A stretch of 31,635 nt of DNA from a virus. Its lineage: Duplodnaviria; Caudoviricetes. The stretch is from positions 1-31,635 of the IMG/VR virus record IMGVR_UViG_3300019879_000001; one strand, written 5' to 3'. Numbering within the stretch: position 1 is the stretch's first letter; the number at the start of each line of letters is the position of its first letter. Made by a program: the position numbers and the translations under genes. Below, piece after piece: positions 20,991 to 31,152 of this stretch. The notes under the pieces are model-generated. The model worked only from the letters and a program-made list of their open reading frames with translations, made no database searches and was not told the DNA's origin.

Positions 20991-21248
20991 ATGGCTGATG
21001 AAACTTTAGCAACAGTAGTACACCCGTTACCACATCGCGGGACTAGCTTCACCTGGATCCCATACTGGATCTATGACGTTATCGTTAAGCTGAAAGCCGA
21101 AGGCGGCGACTGGCGCGATTATGACGACGACCAGTATAAGGTATGGTTCGACACCCTGAAAAAGGCTTACACTGACTACGGCGATGTTGATTTCATCGAA
21201 TCCCGTAACGGTTACGTTCACACTATGTGGCTGATGCCCCAACAGTAA
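20991..21248 (+). CDS. hoc: Hoc-like head outer capsid protein, capsid-binding domain only
   Basis: HPLPHR.TSF.W..YWIYD...W...ESRNGY; ESRNG is the conserved Hoc capsid-binding motif; lies downstream of inh. Confidence 0.8.
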   Translation: MADETLATVVHPLPHRGTSFTWIPYWIYDVIVKLKAEGGDWRDYDDDQYKVWFDTLKKAYTDYGDVDFIESRNGYVHTMWLMPQQ

Positions 21249-21484
21249 CACTGACTGCCAAAAGTGCTCCGGCATTTAAAGTAGGCGATGCTGATCTGGC
21301 TGCTTCCGCACTGTTCACCGTAACACCTGGCGACACCCCGATCACCCTGACCGTTGATGGTTCTGGTAATGCTTCAATCGTAAGCGGCAAGGTTCACGCA
21401 ATCAAAGCTGGTGACGTTGTTGTGACCGGTAAAGCTGGTGACAAGACCGCGACTGTAACACTGACCATTACCGCAGCAGCATAA
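21227..21484 (+). CDS. Ig-like (Big_2-type) domain ORF overlapping hoc in the -1 frame
   Basis: Thr/Val/Ala/Gly-rich beta pattern: TVTP...ASIVSGKVHAIKAGDVVVTGKAGDKTATVTLTIT; no SD before the GTG. Confidence 0.75.
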   Translation: MADAPTVTLTAKSAPAFKVGDADLAASALFTVTPGDTPITLTVDGSGNASIVSGKVHAIKAGDVVVTGKAGDKTATVTLTITAAA

Positions 21485-21493
21485 GGATAAGAA

Positions 21494-22006
21494 ATGATCT
21501 TATTTGAGTTCAACGATGTTTTTGCCCAGTTCTCTGCCACGGTAAAGGCTAAGTTCGGTAAGCTTCCGTCAGAAATGACAAAGACCGAATACGACAATGC
21601 AATGACTTCTGTTCTGCGCACGGATTTTTATAAAACCATGCCACAGGAACAGAAGGGTATCAGTCTGCTGCAATGGGCCAAAACCTATCGCGACAAACAG
21701 GCCGCGTTCCTGCTGATCAACGAAGTGAAAAGCCCAAGCTGGGTAAACAGCGAAAAGATCAACTACATCGATTCGTTCTGCACCGCGCTGGGTATTCCGA
21801 TTCTGGATTTCAGTATCTGCAAAACGGCTGCTGAGTTGAAGGGTCATGCGTATCGTGGTCCACTGATTACCCGCAACAACGATCATCGGATCATCTGGGA
21901 TTCTGCTGGGAAGTATTACAGCGTGTACCTGGAAGAGGAAGACGATGCAATGACGTTGTACAACATCGAGCAATCGTTCAAGCGCTTTGCTATGTCACAA
22001 CAATAA
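21494..22006 (+). CDS. Degenerate HAD / 5'(3')-deoxyribonucleotidase-like protein
   Basis: Aligns by eye with 22037-22489 but has FEFNDV in place of FDMDGV; SD AAGGA. Confidence 0.65.
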   Translation: MILFEFNDVFAQFSATVKAKFGKLPSEMTKTEYDNAMTSVLRTDFYKTMPQEQKGISLLQWAKTYRDKQAAFLLINEVKSPSWVNSEKINYIDSFCTALGIPILDFSICKTAAELKGHAYRGPLITRNNDHRIIWDSAGKYYSVYLEEEDDAMTLYNIEQSFKRFAMSQQ

Positions 22007-22038
22007 AAAAAGGGGCCAATTGGCCCCTTTTCGTTTTT
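22005..22038. terminator. Bidirectional terminator
   Basis: A7-GGGGCC-AATT-GGCCCC-TTTTCGTTTTT between convergent genes. Confidence 0.88.
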
Positions 22039-22489
22039 ATGCTGCTAACATCGGTTTGGTTTGAACGAACAGGACTGCTGTACCGCCTGCTGCTCTGAAT
22101 GGATTGACTGCTTTCAACCGGTCGTCTACTAAAACACCCAGGCCCGCAAACGCTGCTTTCTCTTTGCTGCTTTTGGTGTAGTGGAATTCAGGAAGATATC
22201 CCAGAACCCGGACTAAAGCAGATTTCTTCTGCTCTGCAACTCCCTCAGAATTGAACTTCCCAACGCTGGTAAGGATTGCCGCTTCTTCGCCCATGTTCAG
22301 TACAGAATGAAACAGGTTGATTCCTTCTTCGATGATTTCCAGATTTTCGTAGAAATCTGAATGAGAGATTTGTTCTTTTGCGGCCTGCAACTCTTCGTGA
22401 TCCATTGCTTCGGCTGATTTACCGAAAGTTGTCAAGAAGGCTTTTTCCCAGTCGAACAAAACGCCGTCCATATCGAAGAAGTATTTCAT
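22037..22489 (-). CDS. HAD-family 5'(3')-deoxyribonucleotidase-like phosphatase
   Basis: FFDMDGVL, DFYENL, ILTS, K..FA...VLVDDR...FRAAGG. Confidence 0.82.
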   Translation of the reverse strand: MKYFFDMDGVLFDWEKAFLTTFGKSAEAMDHEELQAAKEQISHSDFYENLEIIEEGINLFHSVLNMGEEAAILTSVGKFNSEGVAEQKKSALVRVLGYLPEFHYTKSSKEKAAFAGLGVLVDDRLKAVNPFRAAGGTAVLFVQTKPMLAA

Positions 22490-22516
22490 AATCTGTTTCC
22501 TTGTGTTGATGTGTGT

Positions 22517-22544
22517 ACCTTAACATAACTGCGCATAGAGTCAA
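22517..22544 (-). promoter_or_regulatory. Putative sigma70-like promoter for the HAD gene
   Basis: Minus strand TTGACT-N16-TAAGGT with extended -10 TG. Confidence 0.45.
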
Positions 22545-23374
22545 CCCCAAGTATCAGTTTTAGGAGCATATTTTGCAATCTTTGCAACAATCTCGCTACC
22601 CAGTTCATCAACAGACTTCTGTTGCTTCCCTTTTGCCTTAACTTTGATGTAATTTGACTTAACAACAAACATCCCGCCCGTACCTGATTTCTTGATCTCG
22701 CTGTCAACGCCAACCTTGTTGAAGCTGATCCAGATATCCCCGTTCATATACTGCTTGAGTGAATCACCCATGTTCAGGATCTTCGCCATAGTCAGCGCCG
22801 CGCCTTCGTGCGTATCCATCAGAATTTCTTTCGGTACGACACGCGCCCGTTTTTCGTTCTGCACAATAGCAACATGAACATCGTTCATCACCCAGACAAT
22901 ATGGATATTTTCTTTCTCATAACCCAGCGTTTCAGTATCACGGGCAATACTGGCGAGTTTCGACATACCTTTAAGGGTCACATCAAAAATCAGGTTGGGT
23001 TTACGATCTTTCGGTGCAGCCAGGATACCGGAATAAACCAGCGTTTGTTTTTTGTTTGAGACGCCGAAGAGGTCTGCAACGATGTGATGCATAGTCGCTA
23101 CGTTGTCCGGCTTGCGCAGGTCCATTGTCTTCACATCATGACCGGTCTGTTTCTGAATAGTCGCAGCCAGCTTCGTACTGTTGATCACCAGGCTTTTGAG
23201 TGCGTCAACATCCATCACCTGCCCTTCTATACCCAGCAATTTTTCCAGTGTGAATCCCTTACCGGAACCGGCACCGCCTGCCAGGATAACGACCTGACCG
23301 AATTTTGGGTAGGCTCTTCCGCCAAAGGTAATCAGGGCTTCATCAAGCTGTGTATGTTCTAAAAATGAAATCAT
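22541..23374 (-). CDS. P-loop kinase / NTPase (zeta-toxin or AAA_33-like)
   Basis: VVILAGGAGSGKG Walker A, MDVD, LIFDVT, lid motif NEKRARVVP. Confidence 0.8.
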   Translation of the reverse strand: MISFLEHTQLDEALITFGGRAYPKFGQVVILAGGAGSGKGFTLEKLLGIEGQVMDVDALKSLVINSTKLAATIQKQTGHDVKTMDLRKPDNVATMHHIVADLFGVSNKKQTLVYSGILAAPKDRKPNLIFDVTLKGMSKLASIARDTETLGYEKENIHIVWVMNDVHVAIVQNEKRARVVPKEILMDTHEGAALTMAKILNMGDSLKQYMNGDIWISFNKVGVDSEIKKSGTGGMFVVKSNYIKVKAKGKQQKSVDELGSEIVAKIAKYAPKTDTWG

Positions 23375-23395: not shown

Positions 23396-23435
23396 TATTT
23401 ATTTATTGACAGTCTATTTCTGAAAGGTGTATGTT
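23396..23435. promoter_or_regulatory. Divergent promoters: late TAAATA (minus) and sigma70-like (plus)
   Basis: TATTTATTTA 23396-23405; TTGACA (23406)-N18-TATGTT (23430). Confidence 0.6.
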
Positions 23436-23486
23436 GTCCCTGTCCTACGGATTTCCCGGACCGACATAAACCATAAGGTACATTAA

Positions 23487-24371
23487 ATGAGCATCAGAAC
23501 CGAACTACAAAATTTTATCCGCGAAGCGGTAAACGGAGATCGTTCCCGGTATGCCGGTCGTTCTCTCCTGCTCGCAGAAGACTTCGCCCATCTGCTCGGA
23601 TTCAAAACCAAATACTCCAATATGGTTTTGCAGATGGATATGGATCCTAAGTGGTCGCCCGCAAACTGGAAAATTAGTGACGATGGTCGAACTGGTTATG
23701 TTAGTGACATTCGTGTTATGACCTTTCGTCATTTCTATGCGATTTCCTTGATGCAGATTGCATCAAAAAATAACACCATCCTGCCTAATGGGATGCCTCT
23801 GAAAAATGTAATCCAGTGTCTTATTGACATTCATCATGAACTGAAAGCCACATACAGAAATTTCGACTTTAGCGAAAACTCCATTTACGCCGAATCTGTC
23901 ACTGTCGCAAAATATCTGATAAACACGCTATACCCGATCATTGCCCGCTACGGCAAGCCGATTGATATCGGCGGTCATCATATTGTGGCTAAAGCTCGCG
24001 AACGGGCCAAACAGGCTGCTATCGAAATCAACAAAACCGGCGTAGTTCTTTCTGTTTACTGCGATGAAATCATTTATAAAGGTGACCAGGTAGACATCAA
24101 AGGCGTTCATCATGAGAAGTTCAACAAGATAATCTTTGCAGACCGTGGCTATGCTTATGGCAACGATATCAGAACACATGCGATAAACCGACTTCGTTTT
24201 AGCGATGCCGACGAGTACTACACCGAAGACGAAAGAACCATTGAACGTTTGCGGGCTGGTACGGAGAAGCGCATAACCAAAGCAAAAGCGGGTCTTGCTG
24301 CTTACTTCAACTGCACGTTAGAAGACGCAGAACGCGAATTTAGTGTTGACTGCCAAACCGACCTCCTGTAA
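23487..24371 (+). CDS. Truncated, degenerate family-B DNA polymerase palm/fingers-like protein
   Basis: Ordered motif remnants: GYVSDIRVMTFRHFYAISL (A), AKYLINTLY (B), VVLSVYCDEIIY (C); SD TAAGG. Confidence 0.6.
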   Translation: MSIRTELQNFIREAVNGDRSRYAGRSLLLAEDFAHLLGFKTKYSNMVLQMDMDPKWSPANWKISDDGRTGYVSDIRVMTFRHFYAISLMQIASKNNTILPNGMPLKNVIQCLIDIHHELKATYRNFDFSENSIYAESVTVAKYLINTLYPIIARYGKPIDIGGHHIVAKARERAKQAAIEINKTGVVLSVYCDEIIYKGDQVDIKGVHHEKFNKIIFADRGYAYGNDIRTHAINRLRFSDADEYYTEDERTIERLRAGTEKRITKAKAGLAAYFNCTLEDAEREFSVDCQTDLL

Positions 24372-24401: not shown

Positions 24402-24719
24402 ATGAAAACTATCGATTGCAAACCAGAATTCGTAACCTTCTATCACGGATCCTGCTCAGTAGCCGGTATCACTAACATGCTTTTGCCTCCTGTTGCCTCG
24501 GAAACTCTGTCAGAAAAAGGCAGAAAGAAAAATCTGGATCGTGTCTTCTTTACTGCTGATATCGGCCTGGCCCGTATCTATGCAGGTCGGGCTGCACGTT
24601 CTATCGGTGGCGAACCGGTCTTATATCGTGTCGTCTGTCCTGTTGGCGCTGTGTGTATGAATGACACCGCTGGCGCTACTGTTTACCATGCTGAATGGGC
24701 TTTTTGTGAGGAAGTATGA
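24402..24719 (+). CDS. Small ADP-ribosyltransferase-fold protein (Arr/KptA-like)
   Basis: FYHGS...LLPP...RVFFT....A..YA.RA....GGEPVLYRV; SD GGGAG. Confidence 0.65.
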   Translation: MKTIDCKPEFVTFYHGSCSVAGITNMLLPPVASETLSEKGRKKNLDRVFFTADIGLARIYAGRAARSIGGEPVLYRVVCPVGAVCMNDTAGATVYHAEWAFCEEV

Positions 24720-25231: not shown

Positions 25232-25654
25232 ATGAAAGCAATTCGCCGCAATATCAGTGAAGTTGACCAGGCCGAGAAAGTACAGATCCATTTCAAGTTC
25301 AATGACCAGAAACAGGGCTATGCTGAAATCGCCCGCGAACACCTTCTGGACAACTGCGATATCTATAATATCGTTCAGGAAATCGAAAAGATCCGTGCTC
25401 ATCGTGCCAACAACCCAAAGGTTAAGCATGTGCTGCGCCGCGTTCATGTGAACAAACATCGTCAGGAGCAAAAGCCGGTTAAAACGGCACGCTCACCGCG
25501 TCCTGATAATCGTCGTAAGGTTGTCGCCCGAGAACTCGACCTTAACGAAGAAGCACTCTACCTCGAAGACGACTACCGCAAGCCGGAACGTCCGCGTTAT
25601 CAGAAACCAAATCAAGCTATGGCGCTGGCGTTCCAGAACGCAGCCCGCAAATAA
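25232..25654 (+). CDS. Hypothetical basic protein
   Basis: SD AAGGG; Arg/Lys-rich C-terminal half; lies directly upstream of rnlB. Confidence 0.75.
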   Translation: MKAIRRNISEVDQAEKVQIHFKFNDQKQGYAEIAREHLLDNCDIYNIVQEIEKIRAHRANNPKVKHVLRRVHVNKHRQEQKPVKTARSPRPDNRRKVVARELDLNEEALYLEDDYRKPERPRYQKPNQAMALAFQNAARK

Positions 25655-25668
25655 TTGAAGGGAACATT

Positions 25669-26685
25669 ATGTTTAAGAAATACGCATCATTGACCAACCA
25701 CTACGAAGGCAAGTTCATCAACGGGATCGTTATGAACGGGCTGGTTGCTGGTGAGTGGGTAGCCCGTGAAAAGATTCATGGTGCTAACTTCAGCTTCATC
25801 ACGCATGACGGATGTAACGTGGTCCCAGCAAAACGCACTGGTGAGATCCTGCCAGGCGAAAGCTTCTACGGCTGCGACGGCGTGGTAGCCAAATATCTGG
25901 AATCTGTCCGTAATATCTGGCAGTCTCTTTTTGTTACCGGTCAGTATGACACACTCGAACTTCAGATCTTCGGTGAGTTGGCTGGTACTGGTGTACAGCA
26001 CGGCATCGATTACGGCGACAAAGATTTCTACGCCTTCGACATCATGGTTAACGGTCAGTACCTGGACGATCACAAAGTGGCCTTCCTGGTCCGTAAGCAC
26101 GGAATGAAAATGGCTCCGCTGCTGGGTTATGGCGAATTCGAAAATCTGAAGAGCATCCCTCTGACTTTCGAAAGCGTTGTTAAACGTGCGAACGCTGCTA
26201 CTCAGGATCCTGAACGTGAAAACGTATTCCTGGTCGAAGAAGCTGGCGATGATGCAGAGAACATCGCAGAAGGTTACGTTCTGAAGCCGGTACAAACTCA
26301 ATGGATGCAGAACGGATCCCGCGTTGCAATCAAATGCAAAACGAGCAAGTTCAGCGAGAAGAAGAATAAACAGGCTAATCGCTTTAACGCGCCTGTAAAC
26401 CTCTCTGACGCGGACACAGCTCAACTGGAAGAGTATGTCACCTATCTGACAGAAAACCGCGTACGTAACGTGCTGTCGAAGATTGATGCTACTAATCTCA
26501 GTGCTAAGGATTTCGGTCGTGTGATGGGCCTGACGGTTCAGGATGCAATGGAAGAGATCCAGCGTAACGAAGGCGATTTTATCACCAAATTCGAAAACCC
26601 TGCGCTGGCGAAGAAAACCTTCGTTGCTGAAGCCCAAAATCTGATTCGCCCTCACTGGGGCGCGATTCTGAACAATGAGTTTTAA
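25669..26685 (+). CDS. rnlB: RNA ligase 2
   Basis: MFKKY.SL.NHY, WVAREKIHGANFS (motif I), IFGELAG, FYAFDI, AEGYVLKP, AIKCK..KFSE. Confidence 0.95.
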   Translation: MFKKYASLTNHYEGKFINGIVMNGLVAGEWVAREKIHGANFSFITHDGCNVVPAKRTGEILPGESFYGCDGVVAKYLESVRNIWQSLFVTGQYDTLELQIFGELAGTGVQHGIDYGDKDFYAFDIMVNGQYLDDHKVAFLVRKHGMKMAPLLGYGEFENLKSIPLTFESVVKRANAATQDPERENVFLVEEAGDDAENIAEGYVLKPVQTQWMQNGSRVAIKCKTSKFSEKKNKQANRFNAPVNLSDADTAQLEEYVTYLTENRVRNVLSKIDATNLSAKDFGRVMGLTVQDAMEEIQRNEGDFITKFENPALAKKTFVAEAQNLIRPHWGAILNNEF

Positions 26686-27256
26686 CAGCGTATTGCAGAC
26701 TGCCAAAACAGCGACCCTTATTGGCAGTCGCAAACCTCCTGAACGGATCGCACGCGTTGCGGTACAAATCGGGCGGGCATTGAGTGAAAGGGGTATCATT
26801 GGTTATTCCGGTGGTGCTCCTGGAATGGATAGTCAGTTTATGTTTGACTATTCCCCTGATCGCAGGGTGATTATCCTCCCTGAAGACGGGTTCAATAACC
26901 TGTATGCAAATGGCAAGGATGTTATCGATTTTACGCAACTTGATACGCACAAGGCCGCAGACATCGCCAGAACTGTAGCCGGTCACTTTGATAGTCAGGG
27001 TGATTATACGCAGCGCCGGTACTCACGGAACACTTACCAGGTGTTGCGGGAAGATCTTAACAGTCCGACTGACTTTGTGTTATTCTGGGCTGAAGAGGTG
27101 AATTTATCGGTAAAGGGTGGCACAGCTATTGCTGTCCGGGTAGCCAGAAAATACGGCGTACCGGTGTTCAATCTCTGGAAAGAATCTGTATTGAACGAAG
27201 TGTGTGAAACGTTGGGGATCGACATTAAGCCCAGAACACTGGATATGTTTTTATGA
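26675..27256 (+). CDS. SLOG / DprA(Smf)-like nucleotide-binding protein
   Basis: IGSR..P, SGGAPGMD..F, SRN.YQVL..DL..P.DFV, GGTA.A...A....VPVFNL. Confidence 0.8.
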   Translation: MSFNSVLQTAKTATLIGSRKPPERIARVAVQIGRALSERGIIGYSGGAPGMDSQFMFDYSPDRRVIILPEDGFNNLYANGKDVIDFTQLDTHKAADIARTVAGHFDSQGDYTQRRYSRNTYQVLREDLNSPTDFVLFWAEEVNLSVKGGTAIAVRVARKYGVPVFNLWKESVLNEVCETLGIDIKPRTLDMFL

Positions 27257-27388
27257 CCCCAAACCATTACGAAACCCTCTCCGTGTTATGTACGGGGATT
27301 AACCCAAGTGAGATTTATTATCATGAACCCAAAAACCCGAGCGCAGAACGCGCAGAGCCGGAACGAAGTTTGCGAAACGTTTGGTATC
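27193..27388 (+). repeat. 28-bp imperfect direct repeat (27193-27220 and 27361-27388)
   Basis: GAACGAAGTgTGtGAAACGTTgGGgATC vs GAACGAAGTtTGcGAAACGTTtGGtATC, 24/28 identical. Confidence 0.8.
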
Positions 27389-27757
27389 CAAAGCGAAAAC
27401 TGCGACCGATCCCCTACCTTGTTCGAACGGGCGCAAAGCCTGATGAACAAGGAGTACGACAGGCAAGTTGAATTCTTGCGCGAACACATCTCAAATAAAA
27501 TTGTGGAACGCGCAACCGAACGCAAAGCATGGATCGATATGAAGCGCGTCGTCGGTTCTCAGTTCCGTGTAGAGATTCAGCCAGAAGTGGTCAAACGTGT
27601 TCTCGCCTGGCTGAAGGAAGAAGGGTTCCCGGACGTGAAAACGGTTGAGAAAGAACTCATGGAAGACCGAGCGAAACCGGCAAGCCAGCGCAGCTACAAT
27701 GTGCATAACAACCCTTACCGGAACTACTCAAGCGAAACTTTATTGCTTGAGTGGTAA
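27323..27757 (+). CDS. Hypothetical protein
   Basis: Fills the gap between genes; ATG 27323 preferred to GTG 27308. Confidence 0.7.
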   Translation: MNPKTRAQNAQSRNEVCETFGIQSENCDRSPTLFERAQSLMNKEYDRQVEFLREHISNKIVERATERKAWIDMKRVVGSQFRVEIQPEVVKRVLAWLKEEGFPDVKTVEKELMEDRAKPASQRSYNVHNNPYRNYSSETLLLEW

Positions 27758-27764
27758 AAAGTTG

Positions 27765-27794
27765 TTGACGGTGAGTTCGGGTCTATTGTAGTAT
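27765..27794 (+). promoter_or_regulatory. Early sigma70-like promoter
   Basis: AAAAA upstream, TTGACG-N18-TAGTAT. Confidence 0.72.
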
Positions 27795-27833
27795 TAATCC
27801 CGTAGACAACAACACTCATTCAGGAGATACGCC

Positions 27834-28100
27834 ATGAACTTCAATCCTACTCTCGTTAAGACCCGCGCTGGTTATGCCCTTCACGTCGAAGGCGCTGCGA
27901 ACCTGGGCAAAGGTGTTGCTGAGTGCATTGCTCTGACCCTCGATGCGGTCGATGCGAAGTACACGCAGGATATGAATTATTGTGGCGGCGTCACTGTCAA
28001 AGTCACCAGCCTGGTGATCGACGGCGTTGATCTCGCTGGTTGGTGGGATGCTTACTTTGATTTCAAAGCGAACATGTTCATCATGTTGTCTGATTTCTGA
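27834..28100 (+). CDS. Hypothetical early protein
   Basis: SD CAGGAG; bracketed by a promoter and a terminator. Confidence 0.75.
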   Translation: MNFNPTLVKTRAGYALHVEGAANLGKGVAECIALTLDAVDAKYTQDMNYCGGVTVKVTSLVIDGVDLAGWWDAYFDFKANMFIMLSDF

Positions 28101-28102
28101 TC

Positions 28103-28123
28103 GGGGGCTTCGGCCCCCTTTTT
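28103..28123 (+). terminator. Intrinsic terminator with CUUCGG loop
   Basis: GGGGGC-TTCG-GCCCCC-TTTTT. Confidence 0.88.
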
Positions 28124-28137
28124 GCGAAGGATATATT

Positions 28138-28548
28138 ATGAAAGAGTACGAAGGCACCGAAGCCGATGCGATGGAAGACTGGGACGGCGCAGACGCCTAC
28201 ACCAACGAAGACGGGACATTCACCGCTAATCAGGAAGCCATGACCCTTAAACGGGAACTGATTGACCTGATGAAGCGCCCAAATGATTCTTTTCGGGGTG
28301 AAACTGTTGTCGCCTGCTATTCTGGTCGCGTGATTACAAAAGAGAGACAAACTGCATTAATTGAGTTGTATACTCTGGCGAAATCGGCTAAAGTTGGTTC
28401 GGTGATTAAGTGTCCTACGTGTGGCACCGAACACACAAAGACCACTTATCACAAAGTCTTTTGCTCTAACGGGAAGAAGACAAAGAAAGACTGTAAGACT
28501 AAATATCATAACACGATTCATCCAGAACGGCTTGAACGTGTATTTTAA
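28138..28548 (+). CDS. Hypothetical protein with C-terminal Zn finger
   Basis: SD AAGGA before ATG 28138; CPTCG...FCS...C...YHN. Confidence 0.72.
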   Translation: MKEYEGTEADAMEDWDGADAYTNEDGTFTANQEAMTLKRELIDLMKRPNDSFRGETVVACYSGRVITKERQTALIELYTLAKSAKVGSVIKCPTCGTEHTKTTYHKVFCSNGKKTKKDCKTKYHNTIHPERLERVF

Positions 28549-28566
28549 TCAAACGTGGAGTACGTT

Positions 28567-30003
28567 ATGACAACATTTGCAGAATTAAACAGTGTTTTAA
28601 CCGCAGTAGATTCATACAAAACAACGCACTGGCTTCAGTATCCAGAAGGGACTGATGGCGCAGTATTCTATATCGAGTCGCGTGGTGGCAAGTTTCAGGA
28701 AGTGGTGACCGGTGGTCCAAACTACATCGCCCGCTTACTGTCGCAGCCAGTGACCCGTAAACAGGTACTGTTCGCGCAACGTCTGTATAAAGCTCACTTC
28801 GGCAAAGACATTTTCAACCTGGACGGATGGTTGAAAATCGCGGAACTCGGATATCTTCCGGTTAAATTCTCTGCGATTCCTGAAGGTACTGTTGTGCCGG
28901 TTAAAAACATGGTGGCTCGCTTTGAAGCATTTGGCGAATACTCATGGCTCGCGGGCTGGCTGGAAACGCCAGGAGTACGCGGGATCTGGTATCCTTCAAC
29001 CGTTGCAACACTGTCCCGTGAATGTAAAAAGGTAATCAACCAATATCAGTCTATGACCTCGGATCTCCAGGGCGATGATTATGATTTTGTGTTAAAAACC
29101 CGCTTACACGATTTCGGGGCGCGTGGTGCAAGCTCTGCCGAATCTGCTGCTATCGGCGGTCTGGCACATCTCTATAACTTTATCGGAACCGATACCGTAG
29201 AAGGAATGATTCTGGCTATCTCGATGTTTGCGGATGCAGAATATCTCCTGGAAAACGAAAACGCTGCTATTGATGCTGCCGGGATCTCAATTCCTGCGCG
29301 TGAGCACTCTACTACGATTTCGTACGGTCGGGAAAACGAACAGGACGCCTATCTGAACAGCGTTAAGACCTTTGGTGACGGCGTTTACGCAAACGTCTAT
29401 GATTCCTGGTCGTTCAAAACTGCTGTTGCACGGATCATCGAGTATAAAGACCTGGTGATTCAAAAGGGCGGAACTCTGGTAATTCGTCCCGATTCTGGGG
29501 ATATGCTGGACAACATCATGTATGCGCTTACTAAGTTGGGGGAGATCTTCGGATACGAATACAACTCAAAAGGCTATAAGGTGTTGAGCAAACATGTTCG
29601 CATCATTCAGGGCGACGAGATTCACGGTCCTGAAACCATTGCGCGAGTTCTTAGCTGGATGGAGTCTCATAAGTGGGCTTCAGAGAACATCGCTTTCGGT
29701 ATGGGCGGCGGTCTCCTTCAGGAGGTAACCCGCGACACTCAGAAATACGCAATGAAGATGTCGGCAATCCGTGTTAACGGTGAGTGGAAAGGCGTCTACA
29801 AATGCCCAGAAGGGGCGGAGTGGAAGAAGTCCAAAGCCGGTCTGCTTGAAACCATCGTCAAAGACGGTGAGTATAAAACCATCAACTTGCTGGAAGACTT
29901 TATTCCCGAGGGCTGGGAACGTGCTCTGGTCACGTACTTCGACCACGGGGAAGTTAACGAGCAAGATAACCTACAGGTGATTCGTGAGCGTGCAGGGATT
30001 TAA
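28567..30003 (+). CDS. nadV: Nicotinamide phosphoribosyltransferase (NAMPT/NadV family)
   Basis: DSYK.THW.QYP, YIESRGG, WYPSTVAT.S, LHDFGARG, SIPA.EHS, LVIRPDSG, IIQGD, FGMGGGLLQ..TRDT; SD GGAG before ATG 28567. Confidence 0.9.
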   Translation: MTTFAELNSVLTAVDSYKTTHWLQYPEGTDGAVFYIESRGGKFQEVVTGGPNYIARLLSQPVTRKQVLFAQRLYKAHFGKDIFNLDGWLKIAELGYLPVKFSAIPEGTVVPVKNMVARFEAFGEYSWLAGWLETPGVRGIWYPSTVATLSRECKKVINQYQSMTSDLQGDDYDFVLKTRLHDFGARGASSAESAAIGGLAHLYNFIGTDTVEGMILAISMFADAEYLLENENAAIDAAGISIPAREHSTTISYGRENEQDAYLNSVKTFGDGVYANVYDSWSFKTAVARIIEYKDLVIQKGGTLVIRPDSGDMLDNIMYALTKLGEIFGYEYNSKGYKVLSKHVRIIQGDEIHGPETIARVLSWMESHKWASENIAFGMGGGLLQEVTRDTQKYAMKMSAIRVNGEWKGVYKCPEGAEWKKSKAGLLETIVKDGEYKTINLLEDFIPEGWERALVTYFDHGEVNEQDNLQVIRERAGI

Positions 30004-30295
30004 TATCCGCACCAGCGAAAAAGGCTCTGTAGTGTTTCACGGAGATAAGCCCCTTGTGTTATGCAGGGGGCTTTTTTGTAAGCTGGTGAAGCACTCCTTT
30101 AAGCTGGAAGGCGTAGAAAAGAGCGTACTCAAAGAACTGGTGAAGATTGCCTATGAAACAGATCATCTCGACCGCGATCACCGGATCGTATTTGACAGGA
30201 TTCATGAACTGGGCGAAAATCATTGTTTCGTGATCCATCGTGGTCACTCCTACGATTCAATAGCAAAGTTTGAACGAGACTTAGGGAAAATATGA
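29984..30295 (+). CDS. Possible hypothetical protein (start uncertain)
   Basis: Fills the gap and overlaps the dam start (ATGA), but contains a terminator-like hairpin. Confidence 0.4.
   Translation: MSVQGFNIRTSEKGSVVFHGDKPLVLCRGLFCKLVKHSFKLEGVEKSVLKELVKIAYETDHLDRDHRIVFDRIHELGENHCFVIHRGHSYDSIAKFERDLGKI
30047..30077 (+). terminator. Probable terminator after nadV
   Basis: AAGCCCCTTGT...GCAGGGGGC followed by a T6 run. Confidence 0.65.
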
Positions 30296-31152
30296 GTAAT
30301 TATCTGGGAGTCATTCCCTACACAGGAAACAAGCAAAGCCTCCTGAAAGACCTTCTGCCGATGTTTCCCGAGAAAGTCGGGACATTCTATGATGTTTTTT
30401 GTGGTGGCCTTAGCGTGTCTCTGAACGTCCCTTATCCGGTCGTTTCGATGGACATTGAAAAGCCTTTGGTCGATATGTATAACATGCTGCTGAATGAACC
30501 TGATATCAGCTTCGCGAATGAGATCATCGAAGAGTATCACATGACTCCCAGTAATGACGGTCCGTATTACTCGTTGAGGACTCATTACAACGATACCAAG
30601 GATCCGAAGGCTCTTTATGTCCTGCTGATGTTTGCATATTGCAATCTGTACCGGACCAATCTCAAAGGCGGGTTTAATGCCCCGTTCGGGAACAACCGTA
30701 ATCGCAGTGTAAGGGGTGGCTATAAGGATGTATGGCTTGAGCGGTTCAACCATATGCACCGGAAGAAAGAAACCGGCCTGACCATCATTAACGCGCCATA
30801 TCACGCAGCAACCCCTTTGCCTGGTGATTTCGTTTATTGTGATCCTCCGTATCTGATCACGGGTGCGCAGTATAACTCTAAATGGAAAGAAGAGAACGAA
30901 ATCCAGCTTTACAACTGGCTGGATGAACTCGACTCAAAAGGCGTTAAGTTTGGACTGTCCAACGTAATGGAACACGGCGGACGCAGCAATGATATCCTGA
31001 TCGAGTGGGCGAAAAAGTATGATGTTATCGACCTCGATAAGCGATACATGCTGAAGCAGATCCAAGGAAAGGAAAACGAAAAGACGCGGGAAGTTTACGT
31101 GTGTAATACCGGCGTAAATAGTAACCCGTATAACTTAGAAGACTTTATGTAG
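30292..31152 (+). CDS. dam: DNA adenine methyltransferase (Dam / D12 class)
   Basis: YTGNKQSLL, DVFCGGLSVSLN, R.N..G.FN.PFG, VYCDPPY. Confidence 0.92.
   Translation: MSNYLGVIPYTGNKQSLLKDLLPMFPEKVGTFYDVFCGGLSVSLNVPYPVVSMDIEKPLVDMYNMLLNEPDISFANEIIEEYHMTPSNDGPYYSLRTHYNDTKDPKALYVLLMFAYCNLYRTNLKGGFNAPFGNNRNRSVRGGYKDVWLERFNHMHRKKETGLTIINAPYHAATPLPGDFVYCDPPYLITGAQYNSKWKEENEIQLYNWLDELDSKGVKFGLSNVMEHGGRSNDILIEWAKKYDVIDLDKRYMLKQIQGKENEKTREVYVCNTGVNSNPYNLEDFM

What the first reader, a model, noticed from the sequence alone, without database searches (positions are those of the whole stretch)
23487..24371. Stand-alone miniature PolB core with the motif-A aspartate lost
Seen: the 294-aa protein carries PolB-like elements in the correct order. 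These are GYVSDIRVMTFRHFYAISL (cf. G....V...DFxSLYPSII), LKNVIQCLIDIHHELK (fingers helix), AKYLINTLY (cf. KxxxNSxYG), HIVAKARERAKQ...GVVLSVYCDEIIY (cf. IT..GR...VIYGDTDS) and EKFNKIIFADRGYA (cf. E..Y......KKRYA). Established: PolB needs an Asp in both motif A and motif C; here motif A has Thr (~T79) and only D193 remains, with no exonuclease domain. Inference: a pseudo-polymerase expressed early from its own promoter. It may be a DNA/nucleotide binder, a decoy for defences that sense phage polymerases, or an enzyme with altered chemistry.
Basis: partly seen in the sequence, partly recalled or inferred. Interest (0 to 1): 0.72.

Follow-up and report, generated by a model that had tools for sequence, protein, structure and literature searches.

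The report
Thumbless phage pseudo-polymerase keeps nucleotide pocket
This T4-like phage gene encodes a conserved 294-residue protein predicted to fold as only the palm and fingers of a family-B DNA polymerase; all aligned relatives lack one catalytic aspartate but keep the nucleotide-binding residues, so it likely binds nucleotides without copying DNA.

Summary
Observation confirmed and extended. ORF 23487-24371 is the orthologue of RB43ORF242w in a T4-like (Pseudotevenvirus/Slopekvirus-related) phage. Its AlphaFold model (pLDDT 83) matches family-B polymerases. A 32-sequence family profile hits archaeal PolBs by sequence (KOD E 3.5e-9) and puts T79 on catalytic D404. The family covers enterobacterial and Aeromonas T4-like phages, Vibrio Ackermannviridae and ~100-kb Vibrio phages. 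Motif-A Asp is absent in 32 of 32. Motif-C Asp is present in 32 of 32, and the triphosphate-binding Arg/Lys/Lys, steric-gate Tyr and the E580-type acid are among the most conserved columns. There is no exonuclease domain and no full thumb. dN/dS is 0.07-0.26 in nine orthologue pairs. All nine carriers tested also encode a separate replicative PolB; the 14 polymerase frames scored against the family profile match it only weakly, which argues against a gp43 decoy. In RB69 polymerase, losing this Asp abolishes synthesis but barely affects dNTP binding, so the best reading is an early nucleotide-binding pseudo-polymerase (~0.42). An enzyme with re-wired chemistry is the main rival (~0.27). Not found in print in my searches; the scan has noted similar mini-PolBs in other genomes.

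The parts
23487..24371 (+). Mini-PolB ORF, 294 aa (phrog_7439; orthologue of RB43ORF242w)
23406..23435 (+). Sigma-70-like promoter match TTGACA-18-TATGTT; TTATTGACA also upstream in L008-L014
   Evidence: not above chance alone; 7 of 7 orthologous loci
23441..23466 (+). Predicted leader stem-loop; a similar hairpin folds in the RB43-, RB16- and KP15-type leaders with different outer-stem letters (PeSL-like layout)
   Evidence: no shuffle control; PMC2839356 passages
23470..23479 (+). ACCATAAGGT with Shine-Dalgarno core, conserved in orthologues
23709..23750 (+). Motif A strand and helix (res 75-88): T79 in place of the catalytic Asp; Y84 steric-gate position
23799..23861 (+). First fingers helix (res 105-125): L112 invariant, H116 (R in 30 of 32), K120
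23910..23933 (+). Motif B (K142, N146, Y149)
24042..24080 (+). Motif C hairpin (res 186-198) with D193 (32 of 32) and E194
24108..24161 (+). Palm strands with E210 (aligned to KOD E580) and degenerate KKRY position
24237..24356 (+). Two C-terminal helices (res 251-290) where the thumb would be; not matched by VIA-align
24402..24719 (+). Downstream ADP-ribosyltransferase-like gene (phrog_2110); syntenic neighbour in RB43-type and 44RR-type phages but not an obligate partner

Best explanation
A PolB-derived pseudo-polymerase: it is predicted to fold as palm plus fingers without exonuclease or full thumb, likely binds a Mg-nucleoside triphosphate in its retained pocket without carrying out normal two-metal DNA synthesis, and likely acts early in infection as an accessory host-takeover or counter-defence protein, not as part of the replisome. 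Shown by sequence: loss of motif-A Asp in all aligned members, retention of the triphosphate- and sugar-binding residues, purifying selection, and coexistence with an intact replicative PolB. Predicted: the fold. Inferred from RB69 enzymology: nucleotide binding without chemistry. Inferred from context only: early timing and a role against the host, most simply by holding or sensing a nucleotide ligand, or by nucleotide-dependent docking on a DNA 3' end or a host protein. Rough step odds: fold 0.97, pocket binds nucleotide 0.75, no polymerisation 0.7, host-directed accessory role 0.55-0.6.
For: Fold; a second member P0019 gives the same result (best E 1.2e-8). Column counts in 32 sequences: position 79 = S14 T9 G3 Y2 Q2 F1 C1; D193 32; R116 30 (H 2); K120 29 (+2 R); K142 30 (+2 R); Y84 28 (+2 F); E210 26 (+5 D); N146 22 (C 10). 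Mean column identity is only 29%, and five of the six best-conserved columns are ligand residues. PMC3792054 (passages): RB69 D411A gives complete loss of polymerisation with minute impact on dNTP binding, and E686 is in the water network to the nucleotide. Structural alignment stops at about residue 227-234 against chain 610 (5mdn) and 725 (RB69). dN/dS 0.066-0.262 in 9 of 9 pairs that could be computed (the tenth, window vs EcRAM-01, was saturated). Separate replicative PolB in 4 of 4 and 5 of 5 carriers. Absent at E<=10 from T4, RB49, Aeh1 and CBA120; in KVP40 only a weak hit (E 0.0089) in an 853-aa frame. It therefore looks dispensable for T4-type replication. It lies among small accessory genes (hoc-srd-rnlB region; after groEL; beside thymidylate synthase and deformylase), not in the replication module.
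Against: No ligand, activity or expression data. An invariant Asp plus three basic residues fits an enzyme as well as a binder. This very protein has His at the conserved Arg116 column (2 of 32). Ten members have Cys for the motif-B Asn. A possible substitute carboxylate exists: Glu/Asp two residues before motif A in 12 of 15 non-enterobacterial members, and Glu right after D193 in 14 of 17 enterobacterial ones; its geometry was not tested. The 32 rows include near-duplicate pairs. Neighbours are not conserved across groups, so context names no pathway. About as many records hold this gene (176) as hold the neighbouring kinase-like gene at >=60% identity (179; not matched record by record). 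That near-core retention is more stable than many counter-defence genes.
Confidence: 0.42

Rival explanations
1. Active enzyme with re-wired chemistry: one-aspartate or substitute-carboxylate catalysis on a non-duplex substrate, such as (d)NTP hydrolysis to NMP + PPi, single nucleotide transfer to a protein, small molecule or nucleic-acid end, or turnover of a signalling nucleotide.
For: The whole triphosphate pocket is conserved at ~29% identity. Position 79 is mostly small or hydroxylated (S/T/G/C 27 of 32). Acidic residues at motif A -2 and at D193+1 are largely complementary between subgroups. Vibrio members keep YGDTD/YSDTD/YADTD and KRY. Neighbours often act on nucleotides: two NT5C-like genes, a P-loop kinase, an ART-like gene and NAMPT in the window, an annotated ADP-ribose pyrophosphatase in L049, thymidine kinase/synthase in L047.
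Against: Motif-A Asp is catalytically essential in RB69 polymerase (PMC3792054). Six of 32 members (P0006, P0014, P0015, phage 65.2, VAP7, VP-1) have neither candidate substitute acid. The nucleotide-enzyme neighbours differ between groups. I know no PolB that works without this Asp (own knowledge).
Confidence: 0.27
2. Dead scaffold in the manner of herpesvirus UL8 or poxvirus F12: a PolB remnant used for protein-protein contacts in replication, recombination or assembly.
For: Inactivated PolBs with such roles are known (PMC4304020, search listing and abstract start; UL8 title in the reference list of PMC4889955). UL8-type proteins appear lower in the BFVD list. Near-core in its phage group.
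Against: Conservation is concentrated on ligand residues, not lost from them. The gene is far from replication genes and missing from T4, RB49, Aeh1 and CBA120.
Confidence: 0.13
3. Decoy that soaks up host defence sensors of the phage's own DNA polymerase.
For: Polymerase-like surface, promoter-led accessory position, and an srd sigma-decoy gene a few genes downstream in RB43 and 44RR2.8t.
Against: The family resembles archaeal/Pol alpha-type PolBs far more than the carriers' own replicative enzymes: 14 scored frames from carriers give E 2.7 to 8,100, against 38 PDB PolBs at E<=0.001 with no RB69 gp43 among them. A decoy would be expected to track gp43.
Confidence: 0.08
4. Catalytic half of a split polymerase: a partner supplies the thumb and/or the missing carboxylate in trans.
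For: Split PolBs occur in these phages (phiAS4, V6Aob, 3.058.O; gp43A/B in PMC2839356 passage). Earlier scan notes report other mini-PolBs that keep both aspartates (unchecked).
Against: No conserved neighbour across the groups. The split gp43 halves already contain motif A and motif C between them in V6Aob and 3.058.O. The motif-A position is on the central palm strand, where supply in trans is unlikely (inference).
Confidence: 0.05

Closest known systems
Catalytic core of archaeal/eukaryotic-type family-B polymerases (KOD, Tgo, Sso PolB1, Pyrobaculum PolB 5mdn, Pol alpha)
   Same: Palm-fingers fold and motif order; motif-C Asp, fingers R/K, motif-B K/N, steric-gate Tyr and E580-type acid align.
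   Different: About 290 aa against 770+; no exonuclease, no full thumb, motif-A Asp lost in 32 of 32; not the replicase.
T4/RB69 gp43 and the carriers' own replicative PolB
   Same: Same fold (RB69 Z 8.4, rmsd 4.0, 184 aligned, chain 340-725).
   Different: No significant sequence match; compact palm without the T4-type insertions; encoded far from gene 43.
Inactivated PolB derivatives: herpesvirus UL8, chordopoxvirus F12, Pol epsilon C-terminal module
   Same: PolB-derived proteins that lost polymerase activity and gained another job (PMC4304020 listing; PMC7544198 passages).
   Different: These are large or fused eukaryotic/viral proteins. That they lose the whole active site is recalled, not checked here. 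This family is a small stand-alone bacteriophage protein that keeps the nucleotide pocket.
Single-aspartate-motif PolB groups (archaeal B2/G2, piPolB, PolB_SITDG)
   Same: PolBs with a changed active-site motif, some still active (PMC7544198 passages).
   Different: They lose the first Asp of motif C; this family loses the motif-A Asp (the first motif-C Asp is kept in only 7 of 32).
PHROG 7439 and PHROG 7204 (unknown function); GenBank PP597383 MVRY019
   Same: The window protein is phrog_7439 (E 2.9e-77) and links to phrog_7204 (E 5.6e-7). One of the 60 listed records labels the orthologue 'DNA polymerase delta catalystic subunit'.
   Different: The PHROGs carry no function. The one label does not note the missing Asp or the missing domains.

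Membership tests
Family-B DNA polymerase (PF00136) | Palm/fingers fold with motifs A, B, C in order | tested here: met
   (predicted models plus profile alignment)
Family-B DNA polymerase (PF00136) | Catalytic Asp in motif A | tested here: not met
   T79; 0 of 32 Asp/Glu; aligned to KOD D404
Family-B DNA polymerase (PF00136) | Catalytic (second) Asp in motif C | tested here: met
   D193, 32 of 32
Family-B DNA polymerase (PF00136) | Fingers triphosphate ligands (R..K, KxxxN) and steric-gate Tyr | tested here: met
   this protein has His at the Arg column
Family-B DNA polymerase (PF00136) | 3'-5' exonuclease domain | tested here: not met
   only ~70 residues precede motif A; they align to the helices just before the palm (chain 340-350 onward)
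Family-B DNA polymerase (PF00136) | Thumb subdomain | tested here: inconclusive
   a full thumb cannot fit: ~60 residues remain after the last aligned palm strand. VIA-align stops at 227-234, Atlas alignments reach 253-294, so the two helices may be a thumb-base remnant
Family-B DNA polymerase (PF00136) | Pfam gathering score | tested here: not met
   no hit for the window protein; 2 of 21 and 2 of 24 members weak (best E 0.011)
Family-B DNA polymerase (PF00136) | Template-directed DNA synthesis | not testable with these tools
   needs an assay
Duplicate of T4-type gp43 | Closest to the phage's own replicative polymerase | tested here: not met
   E>=2.7 for carriers' polymerases, hhalign probability 0.9%, against E 3.5e-9 for KOD; no tree was built
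UL8/F12-type inactivated PolB scaffold | Binds a replication or assembly partner | not tested
   no complex prediction or interaction data
PeSL regulatory cassette (RB49/phi1) | Sigma-70 promoter + stem-loop + SD, repeated across the genome | tested here: inconclusive
   layout present and conserved in orthologues; the ACCATAAGG core occurs exactly once in the window and 1-mismatch hits are at chance level; the genome is only ~18% complete

The most novel reading that the evidence does not exclude
A new enzyme class: phages rebuilt the PolB core into a small thumbless nucleotidyl-transfer or nucleotide-cleaving enzyme that works without the motif-A aspartate (perhaps through a shifted glutamate) and uses it early to disarm nucleotide-based host defences or to mark DNA ends or proteins.
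Probability: 0.25. Interest if true: 0.88.

Novelty: new variant of a known kind. Interest (0 to 1): 0.64.

Why it matters
It ties two unannotated PHROG families and unannotated Vibrio phage genes into one PolB-derived family with a clean signature: the catalytic Asp is gone, the nucleotide pocket is kept, and selection is purifying. If it binds nucleotides without chemistry, it is a natural pseudo-polymerase and a candidate new way for phages to manipulate nucleotide pools or signalling. If it is active, it breaks the two-aspartate rule for PolB. It sits in cultured phages (RB43, RB16, KP15, 44RR2.8t, VAP7), so both questions can be tested directly. It also warns annotators not to call it a DNA polymerase.

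Tried and rejected
Single-sequence Pfam and PDB searches were blank or spurious, as were profiles of the enterobacterial group alone (A2, A4). Only adding the Aeromonas/Vibrio members exposed the PolB link by sequence. hhalign of A4 against RB43 gp43 gave nothing. Single-protein scans of viral contigs found no relative. P0018 (804 aa, low-complexity repeats) was dropped as spurious. Left out of the 32-row alignment A7: P0001 (99% identical to the query), P0009 (223 aa, truncated), P0005, L008, L009, L012-L014, the GenBank copies L001-L006, L038 and L042 (close to included rows) and the split copy in phage henriette 12B8. The C-terminal QTDLL resembles a beta-clamp-binding motif (motif recalled) but is not conserved in any alignment: rejected. 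The ART-like neighbour as obligate partner is rejected: 609 records hold it, many in phage groups with no mini-PolB hit, and in Aeromonas phage Aszh-1 the two genes are ~190 kb apart; Vibrio, 65.2 and CC2 members have other neighbours. A decaying pseudogene is rejected by dN/dS. A cellular origin was not found: the only hit in genome contigs is a 178-kb contig that looks like a phage genome (narrow patterns, so no proof of absence). No 'longer' or 'shorter' homologue search was run. 'Stand-alone' rests on ORF boundaries in the loci read and on the length-unrestricted search, where 10 of 11 hits are 223-318 aa. No complex prediction and no phylogenetic tree were run. Literature searches listed no paper describing this family. 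Passages of PMC7544198, PMC4889955 and PMC7824862 did not mention it. Their supplements were not read and could list these proteins. Bermek et al. 2011 (PMC3030377) was not held; only its title in reference lists and one citing sentence were seen.

Full report
Setting. The window is a 31.6-kb, ~18% complete fragment of a T4-like phage. It holds terminase, sheath, portal, capsid, uvsW, inh, hoc pieces, rnlB, NAMPT and a DNA methyltransferase. The finding is ORF 23487-24371 (+), 294 aa. tblastn finds it in 176 of 50,697 phage records at <60% identity (35-41% in the 60 rows listed). The records whose taxonomy I read are Pseudotevenvirus or Slopekvirus. It is the orthologue of RB43ORF242w, in the same gene order. 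Of the 60 rows listed, one names it a DNA polymerase delta subunit; the rest are hypothetical, of unknown function or unannotated.

Fold. The single sequence has no Pfam or PDB match. The ESM Atlas model matches PolB clusters at TM ~0.6. An AlphaFold2 model from 14 sequences has pLDDT 83 and pTM 0.81. Foldseek against PDB lists only PolBs (81 matches at E<=0.001; best 6.9e-6). VIA-align over 48,161 chains ranks seven PolBs first, Z 10.2 to 8.4: Pyrobaculum PolB rmsd 4.6 over 197 residues (model 9-227 on chain 350-610), HSV-1 Pol Z 10.1, RB69 gp43 Z 8.4 (chain 340-725). The tool warns that middling Z is common; the weight here comes from one family filling the top ranks in three searches and agreeing with the sequence profile. 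The model covers the helices just before the palm, the palm and two-helix fingers. There is no exonuclease domain. After the last palm strands only ~60 residues remain (helices 251-274 and 278-290), too few for a full thumb; whether they are a thumb-base remnant is open.

A wider family. Foldseek against viral models put small uncharacterised phage proteins above all full-length polymerases: Aeromonas phiAS4 (252 aa, E 9e-9), Vibrio VAP7 (286 aa) and Aeromonas 65.2 (241 aa). Genome searches confirmed the links by sequence (A4 profile: phiAS4 E 1e-14, VAP7 1.3e-11, 65.2 missed; phrog_7204 finds all three). Further tblastn rounds gave 115, 91, 61, 97 and 114 records (overlapping sets). These add Aeromonas T4-like genera, Vibrio Ackermannviridae and related ~157-kb phages, and ~100-kb Vibrio phages. 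Vibrio members keep textbook motifs: YGDTD, YSDTD or YADTD, LYP/FYP, and KRY. With them, the profile hits PolBs by sequence: A5 gives Sso PolB1 E 2.2e-9; A7 (32 rows) gives 38 PDB sequences at E<=0.001, all archaeal PolBs or Pol alpha, best KOD 3.5e-9. A second model (P0019, pLDDT 77.5) again matches only PolBs among the listed rows, best E 1.2e-8.

Active site. In A7 (mean column identity 29%; it includes near-duplicate pairs) the motif-A Asp column holds S14 T9 G3 Y2 Q2 F1 C1: no acid in 32 of 32. D193 is invariant. R116 is Arg in 30 (His in this protein and P0002), K120 Lys/Arg in 31, K142 Lys/Arg in 32, Y84 Tyr/Phe in 30, E210 Glu/Asp in 31, N146 Asn in 22 and Cys in 10. The KOD alignment maps these to D404 (lost), Y409, R460, K464, motif B, the second motif-C Asp and E580. 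The motif-A stretch is weak as a separate domain, so its register rests on the FxxLYP anchor. The pattern is selective: residues that hold the triphosphate and sugar stay, while the metal ligand needed for chemistry and the duplex-gripping thumb go. PMC3792054 (passages) states that RB69 D411A loses polymerisation completely with minute impact on dNTP binding. PMC3715850 (passage) places the equivalent Klenow residue D705 after fingers closing. One caveat favours an enzyme: an acidic residue sits two before motif A in 12 of 15 non-enterobacterial members, and Glu follows D193 in 14 of 17 enterobacterial ones; six members have neither. I could not measure the geometry.

Selection and context. 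Nei-Gojobori dN/dS is 0.066-0.262 in nine orthologue pairs across all three main groups; the tenth pair was saturated. All nine carriers tested encode a separate replicative PolB. Fourteen scored polymerase frames from carriers match the family profile only at E 2.7 or worse (same database size), so this is not a recent gp43 duplicate; no tree was built. T4, RB49, Aeh1 and CBA120 give no match, and KVP40 only a weak one in an 853-aa frame. In RB43-type and 44RR/phiAS4-type phages the gene follows hoc and precedes the same ART-like gene. That gene occurs in 609 records and is unlinked or absent elsewhere. Vibrio copies follow groEL or sit among thymidylate and deformylase genes. Upstream lie a sigma-70-like promoter match, a hairpin and an SD, conserved in 7 of 7 orthologous loci. 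This resembles the PeSL layout of PMC2839356 (passages), but repetition was not shown. Early expression is therefore inferred.

Mechanism. Most likely (0.42) it is a pseudo-polymerase that binds a Mg-nucleoside triphosphate, cannot do normal two-metal synthesis or grip a duplex processively, and serves early as a host-directed accessory. Rivals: re-wired enzyme 0.27, dead scaffold 0.13, gp43 decoy 0.08, split polymerase half 0.05.

Novelty. It works like the nucleotide-binding core of a PolB but fails membership as an active PolB (motif-A Asp, exonuclease). Inactivated PolBs are known (F12: PMC4304020, listing and abstract start only; UL8: reference title only; Pol epsilon C module and single-Asp motif-C groups: PMC7544198 passages). 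My searches found no description of this phage family; supplements were not read. The scan itself has noted stand-alone mini-PolBs in other genomes, one also lacking motif-A Asp and several keeping both aspartates. These are unchecked notes, and I could not test their kinship with this family. The Atlas lists viral clusters of 254-307 aa with similar features. Verdict: real, conserved, a new variant of a known kind, and testable in cultured phages; interest 0.64.

Noticed in passing
window 24402-24719 (+): 105-aa ADP-ribosyltransferase-like gene (phrog_2110), 60-90% identical in 600 of 609 phage records; next to dmd in several E. coli phages; function apparently unnamed in most records.
   Followed up: partly
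window 21494-23374: Cluster of two NT5C-like nucleotidase genes (21494-22006 +, 22037-22489 -) and a Zeta-like P-loop kinase (22541-23374 -) divergent from the mini-PolB; the kinase is >=60% identical in 179 records.
   Followed up: partly
window 20991-21484 (+): hoc-like gene is in two overlapping ORFs in different frames (85 aa + 85 aa); relatives also annotate hoc in pieces.
   Followed up: no
window 25232-25669: No srd (sigma decoy) gene between the phrog_7404 gene and rnlB, where RB43 and KLB21 have one.
   Followed up: no
window 26675-31152: DprA/SLOG-like gene, NAMPT (28555-30003) and a DNA methyltransferase follow rnlB; possible NAD-salvage/counter-defence block.
   Followed up: no
L073:3001-3849: An orthologue lies on a 178,077-bp contig of a Flagellimonas marina assembly; the size matches these phage genomes, so it is probably a co-assembled phage.
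   Followed up: no
L048:2327-3144: Vibrio phage henriette 12B8 carries the gene as two overlapping ORFs, either a frameshift or a sequencing error.
   Followed up: no
(ESM Atlas, query P0019): Viral clusters of 254-307 aa (53-93 members each; one with 31% PF00136) score 0.95-0.96 by features, hinting at a larger class of phage mini-PolBs.
   Followed up: no
MN038175.1 19107-21362: Pantoea phage Phynn is the best-scoring record for both flanking genes; the gap between its genes 25 and 27 would fit the orthologue but was not read.
   Followed up: no
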